DNA of 15,689 nt from a virus (taxonomy: Duplodnaviria > Heunggongvirae > Uroviricota > Caudoviricetes): IMG/VR virus record IMGVR_UViG_3300029009_000076. One strand, given 5' to 3'. A model generated the notes under the pieces. It saw only the letters and a list, made by a program, of their open reading frames with translations, was not told the origin of the DNA and did no database searches. This document shows positions 821 through 7,703 of the stretch, in pieces (within the stretch, counting starts at the first letter, position 1; the number at the start of each line of letters is the position of its first letter). A program made the position numbers and the translations under genes.

Positions 821-898
821 CGCATCACCTCTGGCAGGCGCCAATGTTAGACTGAAATTGACGCCCGATGTTGATTATTAATAATCAGCTATGAAGTT

Positions 899-1108
899 TT
901 AATTTGAATACAATGCAATTCTCGAGGACTGAAGTTTCTCGCAATTAAAATTTATCAGTTTTACTTTCTGCTCTCTGGAAACGCCTGCTTCTTTTTTACC
1001 TGAGAGCATTTTTTCGCATTCTGATTTCGTTAGTTTAGATTTTGAATATCTTGTCCAGTTAGTAGGAGTGCCACCTTCCTTTTCAATAGTGGCGGTAATT
1101 TTATACAT
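899..1108 (-). CDS. ydaC: Small Rac protein YdaC-like, 69 aa
   Basis: MYKITATIEKEGGTPTNWTRYSKSKLTKSECEKMLSGKK... recognised as YdaC; start ATG at 1108-1106 overlaps the 3' end of ralR by 8 nt. Confidence 0.65.
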   Translation of the reverse strand: MYKITATIEKEGGTPTNWTRYSKSKLTKSECEKMLSGKKEAGVSREQKVKLINFNCEKLQSSRIALYSN

Positions 1109-1295
1109 GAACACCTCCATTATTATTTCCAGTGGTTCGTTTATTCCATCTTTCGAGTGCTTCTTTTTCACTTCCACCATAACCGGTTCGGGATTCGCAT
1201 CCGTTACACTTCGCTCGGTAATATCCTGAAATGGCTTTCACCGTTACTGATGGACAACCACAAAATGGACATGGTTTAACATTGTCATATCTCAT
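1101..1295 (-). CDS. ralR: Restriction-alleviation protein / type I toxin RalR (Lar family), 64 aa
   Basis: MRYDNVKPCPFCGCPSVTVKAISGYYRAKCNGCESRTGYGGSEKEALERWNKR... has the Cys-rich Lar-type motif; start ATG at 1295-1293. Confidence 0.8.
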   Translation of the reverse strand: MRYDNVKPCPFCGCPSVTVKAISGYYRAKCNGCESRTGYGGSEKEALERWNKRTTGNNNGGVHV

Positions 1296-1351
1296 AATTT
1301 TTCTCATAAAAAATATTTCAAGTTGGCGGTGCATTACACCGCCAGGCTGAA

Positions 1352-2161
1352 TTATTCCTCTGAATTATCGATTACACTGTATTCCCCGGTTAATACAGAG
1401 GAATCTGCAGGATCGATTGTCAGTGGTTCCTTTTCATCCATTGATACTGCACGCTGGATCTCAATTGATACGGGCAGATATTTGAACAGGCGACGAATAG
1501 CCGTTTTCTTTGCCATTTCTTCCCAGTGAGTTACCCACGGCCCGTTATTACCAGCTTTACTCAGGCTGCGCACCAGCTCAATCTGTTTGCGCGTCATAAC
1601 TTCAAACTGAGTACCTCCGTCTTTCAGTCTTGCGACAGCATAGACGTGGGTAACCGGGGCATCTTCGTTTTCTCCCGGGCGGTGTATTAACTTTTCATCA
1701 AGGCCAAATTCGAAGCTAAACTCGTCACCTTCACGGACAACACGGGCTGACAGGCTGGCGATTTGACCAGAACGGCGAGCCAGATCAATCATGCCGCGAT
1801 AGCCAATGATTAGCTGAACGTTCTTTTTACCGCTCTTTTCGTTTTTATTACCAAAAGGCAGTAAATATGCATGACCGAGGGCGCTACCTGGCTCAAGTCC
1901 GAGCTGTGAACACTGTACGATCGCACTGACAAAACTCATAGTGTCACAGTTTCCTAACGCCGGAACTTTACGAATTTCTGTGGTGGCGATACGGATCATA
2001 CGTTCAGCCGTCATATGGCGTGGAAGAGCTGCTGCCAGTTGCTCTTTCATTGATGGCTGGTTAATAAAACTAATCACGTCGCTATTTTTAACTGCTGCTG
2101 GTGCACGGTTTCCCTGAGTTTTTTGCAGATCGGCTTTTGCGATTGGTGGTTGCTTAGTCAT
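1352..2161 (-). CDS. recT: Recombinase RecT (single-strand annealing protein), 269 aa
   Basis: Protein from [24 protein letters not shown]... recognised as RecT; start ATG at 2161-2159 overlaps the recE stop by 8 nt. The ORF track's upstream extension to 2218 is not used. Confidence 0.9.
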
Positions 2162-4754
2162 TTGCATATTCCTTAGCCCAGCGGGGCAGTGATAATGTCT
2201 TAATAGCTGGCCATTCATCGGTATTCAGGCAGTCAGACAGGGTTCGCAGATTGCGGTGATATTCCTGTTGACCTGCCAGTTTTGCTTCTTCGCCCATCAT
2301 GAAAATTTCAACCGGATAACGTCCGCATTCAATAGTTGTGCTGGCAACCAGAAAAACGAAAGTTGGCTGCACTCCAAACTGTGCTTCATAACCGTCACTG
2401 TAGAATGCATCCTGAACGTGATAGCGGTAGTCGTAATAAGCGGTTTTGAATCGTTGAATATCCGCCGTAGTTTTCACGTCCATGATCCAGTGAAATTCAG
2501 GGATAATTTTGTCCGGACGGCACCGACACAAAATTCCTGTTTCAGGATCTTCCCAGTAAATTGATGATTCAGCGTGTCCGGCGCTTTCAACAAGCCATTG
2601 CCCCAGCGGCAAAGCCATAACGCTTTGATACATGAGTTCAATTTTCCGGCCTTCTTCCGCAGTGATAACCGTTTTTCCTGTGCTTGCGCATTCCATCAGA
2701 AACGCTTTCTCTTCTTCTTTTCCGGCGTTTGTACGGCGGTTAAATTCAGGTGCTACGATAAAGCGGTTACTGAATTCTTCCGGTTCAAGTACCCGGCAGT
2801 GGAAAGCAGTTCCTAAATCGAGCGTTTTTGTCTTTGTGGTGTCCACGGGGGCATTTTTACGCCACAAATATAGTGCCGGAGTATCAGCAATGTCATCGAG
2901 CTGAGACTTACTGATACCGGGACCCGCGTGGTAATTCTCATTCGAAATTCCGTAATAAATACCTGGCTCTATGTCTTCTACGATTACGGGATCTGCGACT
3001 TCGCCAGTTTCATCACTGCAATCGCGATGCGGATCGCTGCCAGCATTCTCATTGTGCGGATGTTCAGCGCCTTCCATTTCCTCCGGATCATTTTCCTTAG
3101 CTTCAACCTGACTCTCTTCATCGAATGTTTCCTGGTATGTTGCGTCGCCCATCACCGCACCACAGTCAGGGCAGTTATCCCCGCCAGTCTGGCCGCAGGC
3201 ATTGCAGGCTATTTCCGGTTCCTGTTGCACTACTGGCTCAGGTTGATTCATATCTGGGCTGGTTTTTTCCGTTTCTGGCTGGTTCTGGTACACACAATCG
3301 CGAGTCTGGATCCCCTTTACCCATTTCGGATCGTTCGGGTCGCTAATTCCGTCAACAAATTCACCACGTGATGCAGCAAGCAATTTATCGGCATCGACAG
3401 GATTTTTTGATGGAATGTTTTTCCGGGCTTCATGGAGTTCTGCCCGCAGTTCCTGATATTTCGCATCAACAGAATTTACCTGTGACTGAGCATCCAGCGG
3501 CTGCGTGTCCTGATGATGTTCAGTTGCGTCCGGTTCCATTGTTTCAGCCTCTCCCTGTTCAACTGCCGTTGTTCCAGATGGTTGCGGTTTTTCTTCATCA
3601 TCCTGTTTTCCTTCTTCTGTTACTCGCTGCGGCATCGGGGCAGAGGAGCGACCGCAGGCAATATCCACGATTTCCGGATCAGGGTTGGCATGATCGGTTT
3701 CAGTCAGTACTTTGTTCAGATATTCAGTGACGTGCGCGGGGATGACCTCGATCCCAATTGGTGCTTCTTTTACGGACGCAACCACGATGGCGCGGGAATA
3801 ATCCAGCCCGCCAGGCATGGTGATGAATTTGTCGCGGAAAACAGAAAAGGGCGGTTTATTTTCAGCGATAATTTCCTCAATGCGTTTAGCGTGTGCCGGA
3901 TGAAGGTTATAGATGTCCAGATCCATTGAACGGGCCAGTACGCCAGTGGCTACGTCGCGCGCCAGTGACGTCAGATCGTGTACGAAACCTTCGCCGCGAT
4001 CGGTGAGGTTTCCGCCGCCAGCATTAGCACCGGAAGCCGTGCGAGTGATGTGTGAAACACGATTACCCTTCATCCACTCTTTTGTCAGCAGTCCTCGATC
4101 GGTGTAGTCAGCGTTCAGGTATGCTTCGAAAAAAGCAGTTATCAGTCCCAGGTTTGAATTACCAGGATTAGGGAAAACTTTGTCAGTGTCACGAACCAGT
4201 TTGTGGAGTTCGCGAATTTCCAGCGGGTCGAGCAGGCTGGTTTTGTGGGAAACAGCCAGGGCAGTAACAGCCGGTAGTTCTTCAGCCCGAGCAATGTGTA
4301 ATGCCTGGAGTCCGTCGCGTGAAACGTGCGTTACCGGTTTTTCGCTGCCGTGTTGAGCAAGCCAACGAATGGGCAGTTCCTGGCCAGAAATTGGGAGTAG
4401 CATATTCTCCTCAATCTCAGTCATGTCTTCGCCGTTGACGTTGGTATTGCCTTGATAGTGAGCGTTGTCTGGTGCTGCTCCCGGTTTTAGTTCCCATGTC
4501 ATGGAGTCTTTGCTGAGTTGATAGCGTTCACTCCAGGTAAAATCGATCTCACCTTCAGCGGGCAGGTCATTAACGACAGGAAAATTCGTGGCAACAGCTT
4601 TAAAATAGCTGCTCAGTTTTTTACCTGACTTAACGATCAGGTAGTCCAGAGTGGCACAGGTCGATTCAAAATCGTTGCTTGCCCACAGGACGACGTCAGG
4701 TTCACCGGATGATTTTTTCGCTTTCCGTAACAGGAAGAGTGGTTTTGTGCTCAT
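2154..4754 (-). CDS. recE: Exodeoxyribonuclease VIII RecE, 866 aa
   Basis: Full 866-aa [32 protein letters not shown]...; acidic central region and C-terminal nuclease domain as in RecE; sits directly upstream of recT in one operon. Confidence 0.9.
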
Positions 4755-4825: not shown

Positions 4826-4857
4826 ATAGCCTGCGCCATACGCAGGCTATTTCTTTC
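4826..4857 (+). terminator. Intrinsic-terminator-like hairpin oriented on the plus strand, between recE and racC
   Basis: Perfect 10-bp stem ATAGCCTGCG / CGCAGGCTAT with 5-nt loop (4826-4850) followed by TTCTTTC; the T-tract is only on the plus-strand side. Confidence 0.4.
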
Positions 4858-6840: not shown

Positions 6841-7242
6841 ACGCCGGGTATATGGACCATCTGTCGTGGTGCCACAATGGTGGATGGTAAGCCCGTCATA
6901 CCGGGAATGAGGCTGTCGAAGGAAAAATGCGACCAGGTTAACGCTATTGAACGTGATAAGGCGCTGGCATGGGTGGAGCGCAATATTAAAGTACCACTGA
7001 CCGAACCACAGAAAGCGGGTATAGCGTCATTTTGTCCCTATAACATTGGCCCCGGTAAGTGTTTCCCGTCGACGTTTTATAAGCGGCTGAATGCCGGTGA
7101 TCGTAAGGGTGCATGCGAGGCGATTCGCTGGTGGATAAAAGATGGTGGGCGCGATTGCCGCATACGTTCAAATAACTGCTATGGACAGGTTATTCGTCGT
7201 GACCAGGAAAGCGCATTAGCCTGTTGGGGGATAGATCAGTGA
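6841..7242 (+). pseudogene. 5'-truncated phage lysozyme-type endolysin (R-like); roughly the N-terminal 40 aa, including the likely catalytic/SAR region, are missing
   Basis: Frame is open from 6817; the part ...PGIWTICRGATMVDGKPVIPGMRLSKEKCDQVNAIERDKALAWVERNIKVPLTEPQKAGIASFCPYNIGPGKCF...ACWGIDQ aligns by eye to lambdoid prophage lysozymes (RrrD-like), but no N-terminal region or plausible start is present; stop TGA 7240-7242 overlaps the Rz start. Confidence 0.65.
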
Positions 7243-7703
7243 GCAGAGTCGCCGCGATTATTTATGCTCTGGTTATCTGCATCATCGTCTGCCTGTCATG
7301 GGCTGTTAATCATTACCGTGATAACGCCACCGCCTACAAAGAGCAGCGCGACAAAAATGCCAGAGAACTGAAGCTGGCGAACGCGGCAATTACTGACATG
7401 CAGATGCGTCAGCGTGATGTTGCTGCGCTCGATGCAAAATACACGAAGGAGTTAGCTGATGCGAAAGCTGAAAATGATGCTCTGCGTGATGATGTTGCCG
7501 CTGGTCGTCGTCGGTTGCACATCAAAGCAGTCTGTCAGTCAGTGCGTGAAGCCACCACCGCCTCCGGCGTGGATAATGCAGCCTCCCCCCGACTGGCAGA
7601 CACCGCTGAACGGGATTATTTCACCCTCCGGGAACGACTGGTAATGATGCAGGCCCAACTTGAAGGTGCTCAGCAATACATAACCGAACAGTGTTTAAAG
7701 TAA
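7239..7703 (+). CDS. rzpR: Rz-type i-spanin (inner-membrane spanin), about 154 aa, apparently intact
   Basis: [60 protein letters not shown]... is near-identical in pattern to lambda Rz; likely GTG start at 7239 overlapping the endolysin stop (the track offers TTG at 7224). Confidence 0.8.
7459..7644 (+). CDS. rzoR: Rz1-type o-spanin lipoprotein, 61 aa, embedded in the +1 frame of Rz
   Basis: [52 protein letters not shown]...: signal peptide with lipobox ...VVGC and a proline-rich mature part; AAGGAG Shine-Dalgarno at 7446-7451. Confidence 0.8.

What the first reader, a model, noticed from the sequence alone, without database searches (positions are those of the whole stretch)
1101..1351. 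ralR toxin / anti-restriction gene with an upstream hairpin; expected antisense RalA sRNA not locatable by eye
RalR is recognised from K-12 work as a Lar-type restriction-alleviation protein and as the DNase toxin of a type I toxin-antitoxin pair with the small RNA RalA. A perfect 7-bp inverted repeat GGCGGTG/CACCGCC (1325-1343) lies between the recT stop and the ralR start and could act as a processing or attenuation element. I cannot place RalA from sequence alone.
Basis: partly seen in the sequence, partly recalled or inferred. Interest (0 to 1): 0.4.

Follow-up and report, generated by a model that had tools for sequence, protein, structure and literature searches.

The report
Known RalR/RalA toxin locus; conserved hairpin

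Summary
ralR (64 aa, minus strand) is at 1101-1295. The inverted repeat is at 1325-1343; it is really an 8-bp perfect stem, TGGCGGTG/CACCGCCA (1324-1344), with dG about -16 kcal/mol, lying 7 nt after the recT stop codon.

RalA can be placed. It is at 924-1102 on the plus strand (Rfam RF02694, 225 bits, gathering score 170), the same position as K-12 gene b4714. It runs antisense to rcbA (ydaC), not to the ralR coding sequence, and overlaps only 2 nt of the ralR stop codon. Its nt 63-78 (986-1001) pair with ralR mRNA at 1158-1173. This is the 16-nt interaction published by Guo et al. 2014. Positions 850-1450 are 100% identical to K-12, so the locus is already known.

The hairpin is not a canonical terminator on either strand, because no U-tract follows the stem. 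Its stem is identical in every recT-linked ralR copy examined, including prophages with an unrelated recT, where homology to this window starts at the stem. Loops differ between copies and one is inverted. No compensatory changes were seen, so RNA structure and DNA motif cannot be told apart.

My best guess (about 0.35) is an intercistronic stem-loop that protects the recET mRNA 3' end and lets the toxin part decay. Interest is low.

The parts
1101..1295 (-). ralR (lar) coding sequence, 64 aa plus stop; DNase toxin / Lar-family protein
   Evidence: ORF list. NF007260 at 166 bits and PF14354 at 53.5 bits. K-12 annotation b1348. 100% identical protein in E. coli and Shigella.
924..1102 (+). RalA small RNA antitoxin (179 nt), antisense to rcbA; its 3' end overlaps 2 nt of the ralR stop codon
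   Evidence: Rfam RF02694 at 225.1 bits, gathering score 170, full length 1-179. Same position as K-12 ncRNA ralA b4714. 5' end mapped by primer extension in PMC4041452.
986..1001 (+). RalA nt 63-78, UGCUUCUUUUUUACCU: the segment that pairs with ralR mRNA
   Evidence: Direct repeat D2. Duplex drawn. Position 62 nt from the RalA 5' end, and mutagenesis, in PMC4041452.
1158..1173 (-). RalA target inside the ralR coding sequence (mRNA 5'-AAGUGAAAAAGAAGCA-3')
   Evidence: 11 contiguous pairs, one G.U, one mismatch. An exact 11-mer is reached in 17 of 1000 dinucleotide shuffles.
1069..1102 (+). RalA 3' stem-loop (UGCCAC / GUGGCG, 14-nt loop) and UUUU tail, the proposed terminator
   Evidence: Structure line of the Rfam alignment. 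Described in PMC4041452.
899..1108 (-). rcbA (ydaC), DUF1187; overlaps the ralR 3' end by 8 nt; fully covered by RalA on the other strand
   Evidence: PF06688 at 131.7 bits. K-12 annotation b1347.
1324..1344 (-). Conserved GC-rich stem-loop, TGGCGGTG - TAATG - CACCGCCA, 7 nt after the recT stop and 28 nt before the ralR ATG
   Evidence: Stem identical in three or four lineages with loops TAATG, CATTA, TAGCCT and TAGTCC. No covariation.
1312..1356 (-). Imperfect extension of the hairpin (20-nt arms, 80%). It includes the recT stop codon and part of the U-run before ralR. Found only in the K-12-like lineage.
   Evidence: Not formed in subclass 1b or in class 2.
1352..1354 (-). recT stop codon (TAA)
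1305..1307 (-). In-frame upstream ATG (would add MRKI); possible alternative ralR start
   Evidence: Retained where the annotated ATG is TTG (L222 type) or ACG (L177), and 5 codons upstream in class 2. Rac-SA53 annotates the long form.

Best explanation
The region is the RalR/RalA type I toxin-antitoxin locus of a Rac-type prophage, in a non-K-12 E. coli strain but identical to K-12 over 850-1450. ralR (1101-1295, minus strand) is the fourth-from-last gene of the early-left operon recE-recT-ralR-rcbA-xisR-intR.

The antitoxin RalA (924-1102, plus strand) is transcribed convergently from inside rcbA. It represses RalR synthesis by pairing its nt 63-78 with codons about 41-46 of ralR mRNA. These points are shown by sequence here and by published experiments.

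The hairpin at 1324-1344 is a separate, conserved element at the upstream edge of the ralR-rcbA/RalA module. I infer (probability about 0.35) that it acts in the operon mRNA as a stable intercistronic stem-loop without a U-tract. When the mRNA is cut in the 68% A+U spacer downstream, or transcription stops within poorly translated ralR, 3'-5' exonucleases trim back to the stem. recET message is then kept while the toxin-encoding part decays. This would hold RalR output below that of RecET and within reach of RalA.
For: Identity: Rfam RalA at 225 bits. K-12 annotation of ralA, ralR, rcbA and recT at matching positions. 100% identity of 850-1450 to K-12 strains, and ralR annotated in 1923 of 5426 E. 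coli genomes. NF007260 and PF14354 matches. 16-nt pairing present and conserved in four other E. coli variants. Experiments in PMC4041452. Operon recET-lar-ydaCQ cited in PMC3141248.

Hairpin: stable, z about -5, and rare by chance when GC-rich. It starts 7 nt after the recT stop codon. The 16 stem nucleotides are identical between Rac-type and RM10740/Rac-SA53-type prophages. Their flanks are unalignable upstream and, by eye in the alignment, only roughly half identical downstream. Megablast homology ends at 1344, the stem edge. Loop sequence is free (four variants plus one inversion), which fits a structure rather than a loop-read motif.

A second hairpin of the same design (10 bp, no U-tract) lies 5 nt after the racC stop and before recE. 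Stable stem-loops without U-tracts just past genes are the steady-state 3' ends of many E. coli transcripts and protect them from PNPase/RNase II (PMC6061677).
Against: For identity: none.

For the hairpin mechanism: no compensatory base changes, so RNA pairing is not demonstrated. Several single-locus variants break a pair. The hairpin is inherited with ralR rather than with recT, which would fit a ralR 5'-leader role at least as well. There is no C-over-G bias downstream, as rut sites would show (C 13, G 19 in 100 nt). No 3' end near recT/ralR is listed in the K-12 Term-seq tables I could search, and no RNase III site was reported for ralR/ralA. The operon is nearly silent in K-12, so these negatives are weak. 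Citrobacter-type ralR homologues have no hairpin.
Confidence: 0.8

Rival explanations
1. The hairpin is a 5'-leader element of ralR. It stabilises a processed or separately initiated ralR-rcbA transcript, or it limits ribosome access or re-initiation after recT, so that toxin translation is set by the leader structure.
For: Homology between prophages with unrelated recT genes begins exactly at the stem, so the hairpin travels with ralR. It always lies 28-33 nt before the ralR ATG. ralR has no good Shine-Dalgarno sequence and its start codon varies (ATG, TTG, ACG). In the K-12-like lineage the extended stem pairs the U-rich stretch before the upstream ATG with the last recT codons. A promoter-like site, TTAACC-18-GATAAT, would start RNA near 1357, at the foot of that extended stem. 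Citrobacter-type homologues instead overlap the upstream stop codon (ATGA), which is another way of coupling to the upstream ORF.
Against: The core stem ends 16-28 nt before the candidate start codons and does not itself cover them. The extended stem and the promoter-like site are not conserved in the other lineages. No mapped 5' end exists. No covariation.
Confidence: 0.25
2. The hairpin is a weak, non-canonical transcription terminator or attenuator between recT and ralR.
For: GC-rich 8-9 bp stem right after a stop codon. A run of 4-6 U is present 9-14 nt downstream in all lineages. Phage early operons commonly contain terminators that are read through.
Against: No U-tract within 0-2 nt of the stem on either strand. 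The terminator scan finds nothing here. The T-tail weight, from a formula recalled from memory, is 0.72 on the minus strand and 0.31 on the plus strand, against 1.22 for RalA's own weak terminator. The downstream U-run directly precedes the upstream ATG and may serve translation instead. lar/ralR is co-expressed with recET (PMC3141248).
Confidence: 0.12
3. The palindrome works at the DNA level. It is either a protein-binding site or a recombination joint at which lambdoid modules are exchanged, with no role in RNA.
For: The stem sequence, not merely the pairing, is invariant. It marks a mosaic boundary. One copy has the loop inverted between intact arms, a DNA-level hairpin or template-switch signature. 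Variants cluster in and just upstream of the 5' arm. From memory, each arm (CACCGCCA) resembles the consensus half of lambda operators (TATCACCGCCAG).
Against: Arm spacing differs between lineages (5 vs 6 bp), which a dimeric DNA binder would tolerate poorly. The half-sites are everted relative to lambda operators. GGCGGTG elsewhere in the window lies inside genes, not in control regions. No candidate binding protein is known.
Confidence: 0.1
4. The hairpin has no function. It is a short palindrome kept by recent common descent and by self-correcting palindrome mutation.
For: No covariation. Pair-breaking variants exist in sampled genomes. It is absent from the more distant Citrobacter-type ralR loci.
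Against: 16 of 16 stem positions are identical where the neighbouring intergenic sequence is, by eye in the alignment, only roughly half identical. By hand, 0.55^16 is about 7e-5, which is not a tool result. The stem is also retained in a lineage whose RalR protein and hairpin loop have diverged (L221).
Confidence: 0.15

Closest known systems
RalR/RalA type I toxin-antitoxin system of E. coli K-12 Rac prophage (Guo et al. 2014, PMC4041452; Rfam RF02694; NCBIfam NF007260)
   Same: Same genes, same order and strands. Identical sequence over 850-1450. Same 179-nt RalA and same 16-nt pairing segment.
   Different: Nothing in the TA pair itself differs. The host prophage is not K-12: 99.7% identity up to 6849, then rearranged. 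The published work cloned ralR from its start codon, so the upstream hairpin was never examined.
Protective 3' stem-loops of Rho-dependent or processed transcripts in E. coli (Dar and Sorek 2018, PMC6061677)
   Same: A stable stem-loop with terminator-like stem and loop size, just downstream of a gene, with no U-tract and no upstream A-tract.
   Different: No 3' end has been mapped here. No C-over-G (rut-like) bias is seen downstream. The hairpin sits inside an operon, ahead of a toxin gene.
Intrinsic (Rho-independent) terminators
   Same: GC-rich 8-9 bp stem, 3-5 nt loop, position right after a stop codon.
   Different: The U-tract is missing next to the stem on both strands.
Divergent or trans-acting type I antitoxins with short complementarity (IstR-1/tisB, OhsC/shoB, OrzO/zorO)
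   Same: The antitoxin RNA is encoded beside the toxin gene, not opposite it, and pairs over fewer than 20 nt.
   Different: RalA pairs inside the coding region. It is Hfq-dependent. It is at the same time perfectly antisense to the next gene of the toxin's operon (rcbA).

Membership tests
RalR/RalA type I toxin-antitoxin system | Toxin ORF is a RalR orthologue (Lar family, about 64 aa, CxxC...CxxC) | tested here: met
   NF007260 equivalog at 166 bits (cut-off 113), TIGR03655 at 55 bits, PF14354 at 53.5 bits. 100% identical to K-12 RalR.
RalR/RalA type I toxin-antitoxin system | RalA sRNA gene adjacent, on the opposite strand | tested here: met
   RF02694 at 225.1 bits against a gathering score of 170, full length, at 924-1102 on the plus strand. 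Matches K-12 b4714.
RalR/RalA type I toxin-antitoxin system | 16-nt complementarity between RalA and the ralR coding region | tested here: met
   986-1001 against 1158-1173: 11 contiguous pairs, one G.U, three more pairs, one mismatch. The core is retained in L002-L005.
RalR/RalA type I toxin-antitoxin system | RalR toxicity (DNase), neutralisation by RalA, Hfq dependence | not testable with these tools
   Shown experimentally for the identical K-12 sequence in PMC4041452.
Intrinsic terminator (hairpin 1324-1344) | GC-rich stem-loop | tested here: met
   8-9 bp, dG -15.9 kcal/mol.
Intrinsic terminator (hairpin 1324-1344) | U-rich tract directly after the stem | tested here: not met
   The tail is AACUUGAA on the minus strand and AGGCUGAA on the plus strand. 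There is no hit in the terminator scan. T-tail weights are low.
Protective 3' stem-loop without U-tract (Dar and Sorek class) | Stable stem-loop just past a gene, low U content after it | tested here: met
   It lies 7 nt after the recT stop codon.
Protective 3' stem-loop without U-tract (Dar and Sorek class) | Steady-state RNA 3' end at the foot of the stem, sensitive to PNPase/RNase II | not testable with these tools
   No entry for recT, ralR, rcbA or ralA in the Term-seq supplements that are held. The supplement of PMC6061677 is not held.
RNase III processing site | About 20 bp or more of duplex RNA | tested here: inconclusive
   The core stem is only 9 bp. A 20-nt imperfect duplex forms only in the K-12-like lineage. 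Published in vivo mapping found no RNase III site for ralR/ralA (PMC6212723).
boxB/nut-type antitermination hairpin | Conserved loop sequence read by the N protein | tested here: not met
   Loops are TAATG, CATTA (inverted), TAGCCT, TAGTCC, TAATA and TAATT.
Structured RNA supported by covariation | Compensatory changes in paired positions | tested here: not met
   0 pairs with changes on both sides in 17 distinct haplotypes. The 8 core pairs (columns 8-15 with 22-29) either never vary or depart only by unpaired cells.

The most novel reading that the evidence does not exclude
The invariant GC stem-loop is a third, cis-acting part of the RalR/RalA module. It moves with ralR-rcbA/RalA between prophages that carry unrelated recT genes, and it sets how much toxin mRNA or protein is made from the early operon. 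In the native operon RalA would then act mainly as a full-length antisense RNA against rcbA and the ralR-rcbA message, with the published 16-nt contact as a secondary mode.
Probability: 0.25. Interest if true: 0.4.

Novelty: already known. Interest (0 to 1): 0.15.

Why it matters
The finding adds nothing new about the toxin-antitoxin pair, which is annotated in RefSeq and has an Rfam family. Two small points may be useful. First, a strictly conserved stem-loop sits between recT and ralR, was outside all published constructs, and could explain how toxin expression is kept low when recET is switched on. Second, RalA is fully antisense to rcbA, now annotated as a real protein gene, so its natural target may be wider than ralR. 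Both are cheap to test but of specialist interest only.

Tried and rejected
- **Longer ORF:** the 77-aa ORF starting at the ATG inside the hairpin loop (1334) is rejected. That ATG is absent where the loop is TAGCCT or CATTA.
- **Terminator:** an intrinsic terminator on either strand is rejected for lack of a U-tract.
- **boxB-like element:** rejected because the loops are not conserved.
- **Lambda-operator likeness of CACCGCCA(G):** recalled from memory. The half-sites are everted and the spacing varies, so I treat it as coincidence.
- **RalA pairing with the hairpin:** only a 7-nt shared word (TGGCGGT, at 1090-1096 and 1324-1330). This is chance level, since 17 such families occur in 601 nt.
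- **Covariation test:** uninformative, because the stems do not vary.
- **Whole-length RNAduplex of RalA against ralR mRNA:** gave meaningless global pairings. I replaced it with a column comparison.
- **Citrobacter/MAG homologues:** RalA-like hits are far below threshold (29-35 bits). They lack the U-rich seed, the hairpin and any matching target, so the RalA-ralR pairing seems confined to the E. coli Rac clade.
- **Transcript ends in the literature:** the eLife Term-seq supplements have no entry for these genes. The Dar and Sorek supplement, the Thomason TSS paper and King and Murray 1995 are not held.
- **Pattern scan of viral contigs for the stem:** about 70 of 120 hits are ralR-linked. 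The remainder have unique loops and no ralR, consistent with chance in a very large collection.

Full report
**What the window is.** The first 6.8 kb match the left end of the cryptic prophage Rac of E. coli K-12 at 99.7% identity. After 6849 the window departs from K-12, so it comes from another E. coli strain. Positions 850-1450 are 100% identical to many K-12 derivatives. A homologous stretch is present in 1923 of 5426 complete E. coli genomes, annotated there as rcbA, ralR and recT. Placed on the K-12 annotation (window position + 1,412,632 = NC_000913.3 position), the minus-strand genes are intR (cut), xisR, rcbA/ydaC (899-1108), ralR (1101-1295), recT (1352-2161) and recE (2154-4754).

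**Checking the observation.** The 64-aa product matches the RalR equivalog NF007260 (166 bits, cut-off 113) and the Lar family (PF14354, TIGR03655). The inverted repeat GGCGGTG/CACCGCC at 1325-1343 is exact. It is slightly larger than described:
- 8 perfect pairs (1324-1344) plus a closing U.G pair on the mRNA strand, dG -15.9 kcal/mol, z = -4.9.
- In this lineage, imperfect 20-nt arms (1312-1356) that take in the recT stop codon, dG -21.4, z = -5.2.

A 7-bp perfect hairpin as such is not remarkable: 13 occur in the window against 5.8 expected. GC-rich ones are remarkable: 2 against 0.13 expected.

**Placing RalA.** A scan of the whole window against Rfam gives one hit above threshold. It is RalA (RF02694) at 924-1102 on the plus strand, 225 bits, full length. 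These are the coordinates of K-12 ralR antitoxin gene b4714. It is antisense to rcbA, and its last two nucleotides overlap the ralR stop codon.

Guo et al. (PMC4041452) mapped the 5' end by primer extension 62 nt upstream of a 16-nt repeat. They proposed the 3' stem-loop plus UUUU as terminator. They also showed by mutagenesis that the repeat mediates repression and that Hfq is needed. In the window the repeat is 986-1001 (RalA) and 1158-1173 (ralR). It comprises 11 contiguous pairs, one G.U, three further pairs and one mismatch. An exact 11-mer between the two genes is reached in 17 of 1000 dinucleotide shuffles. The sequence alone is thus only suggestive, and the experiments carry the claim. 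The 11-12-nt core is kept in four other E. coli variants, one of which has an A-to-G change that gives a wobble pair.

In Citrobacter braakii and related metagenomic homologues, the ralR-rcbA gene pair is conserved. However, the RalA match is far below threshold (29-35 bits) and the U-rich seed is absent.

**The hairpin in relatives.** Loci chosen by RalR protein similarity, and so unbiased with respect to the hairpin, give 34 junction haplotypes from well over 100 viral or prophage contigs. Every copy in which ralR follows a recT gene has the stem. Four points stand out.
1. In E. coli RM10740, in 2015C-4498 and in the inducible phage Rac-SA53, a different and unalignable RecT-family gene lies upstream, and some of these prophages sit at another attachment site. 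Similarity to the window begins exactly at the stem: megablast ends at 1344. The 16 stem nucleotides are identical, while the loop is TAGCCT instead of TAATG. The spacer down to ralR looks only roughly half identical in the alignment.
2. The most diverged RalR of the recT-linked group (L221) keeps the stem but has the loop inverted (CATTA).
3. There is no compensatory change at any of the 8 core pairs. They are either invariant or broken in single haplotypes. RNA pairing is therefore not demonstrated, and what is conserved is the sequence.
4. The extended lower stem of the window is not formed in the other lineages.

Citrobacter-type loci have no hairpin. There the ralR ATG overlaps the stop codon of a different upstream ORF (ATGA). 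A pattern scan of viral contigs for the stem found it 28-33 nt before a ralR start in about 70 cases. The other hits have unique loops and no ralR, as expected by chance in a collection of that size.

**What the hairpin is not.**
- It is not a canonical intrinsic terminator on either strand. The eight bases after the stem are AACUUGAA on the minus strand and AGGCUGAA on the plus strand, and the consensus scan reports nothing here.
- It is not a boxB-like loop-read element, because the loops vary.
- The ATG in the loop, which opens the 77-aa mechanical ORF, is not conserved.
- The core stem is too short for RNase III. Published in vivo mapping saw no RNase III cut for ralR/ralA, although the locus is barely expressed in K-12.

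**Most likely mechanism (inferred).** The anatomy is a terminator-sized, stable stem-loop without a U-tract, starting 7 nt after a stop codon. It matches the structures that mark and protect the steady-state 3' ends of Rho-dependent or processed transcripts in E. coli (PMC6061677). A second hairpin of the same design (10 bp, dG about -19) lies 5 nt after the racC stop and ahead of recE in the same operon. ralR is co-transcribed with recET (PMC3141248). The spacer and the start of ralR are 68% A+U and lack a convincing ribosome-binding site.

I therefore favour a stem-loop that keeps the recET part of the message after cleavage or termination downstream, so that the toxin part is short-lived. 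Three points count against this:
- The element is inherited with ralR, not with recT.
- There is no C-over-G bias downstream.
- No end-mapping data exist for it.

The main rival is a ralR leader function in stability or translation. A DNA-level role, or no role at all, cannot be excluded.

**Comparison and verdict.** The toxin-antitoxin pair is a full member of the described RalR/RalA system, and every sequence-testable criterion is met. The hairpin works like, but is not shown to be, a protective 3' stem-loop. It fails the test for an intrinsic terminator. Nothing here is new in kind. The finding is sound, its open question (where is RalA?) is answered, and the remaining unknown is a small conserved hairpin of unproven function.

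Noticed in passing
window 4826-4850 (minus strand): A second perfect GC-rich hairpin, AUAGCCUGCG-UAUGG-CGCAGGCUAU (10 bp, about -19 kcal/mol). It lies 5 nt after the racC stop codon and about 70 nt before the recE start, with no U-tract. It has the same design as the recT|ralR hairpin.
   Followed up: partly
L172 = L221 (IMGVR_UViG_2731957942_000002), junction upstream of ralR: The 5-nt loop of the hairpin is inverted (CATTA instead of TAATG in the ralR sense) between unchanged arms. This is the signature of a DNA-level hairpin or template-switch event.
   Followed up: partly
window 1324-1351 in related loci (L006, L033, L052, L054, L062, L069, L075, L078, L081, L240, L271): Among near-identical K-12-like copies, single-locus changes pile up in the 5' flank, 5' arm and loop of the hairpin: about 12 of 19 events within the 122 nt aligned. 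This could be a real palindrome hotspot or a GGC/inverted-repeat sequencing artefact.
   Followed up: no
window 1293-1307 (minus strand): The annotated ralR ATG (1295) is TTG in a common variant (L222 type) and ACG in L177. An in-frame ATG four codons upstream (1307) is kept, and it lies five codons upstream in class 2 prophages. Rac-SA53 annotates the longer form. The true start may differ between lineages.
   Followed up: partly
window 924-1108: RalA is perfectly complementary to rcbA from just after its start codon to about codon 62, within the same operon mRNA as ralR. rcbA is now annotated as a real protein gene (double-strand break reduction), although Guo et al. 2014 argued that ydaC is not translated.
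   Followed up: no
window 858-885 (plus strand): The best promoter-like site in the region is TTGACG-16-AATAAT (10 of 12 matches). It ends 39 nt before the mapped RalA 5' end at 924, too far away to give that start. A TACAAT at 909-914 is closer. RalA may be processed from a longer transcript.
   Followed up: no
window 6849-7266 and beyond 9689: Relative to K-12 Rac, the window lacks about 3.7 kb (K-12 ydaG to ydaW, including racR, ydaS and ydaT) and diverges again after 9689. The prophage is therefore a different Rac variant with another immunity region.
   Followed up: no
phage collection hit H45 (PP818812.1): A 97% identical RalR is encoded in a record named Actinobacillus phage vB_Apl-pPE4. 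This is an unexpected host for an E. coli Rac-type gene.
   Followed up: no
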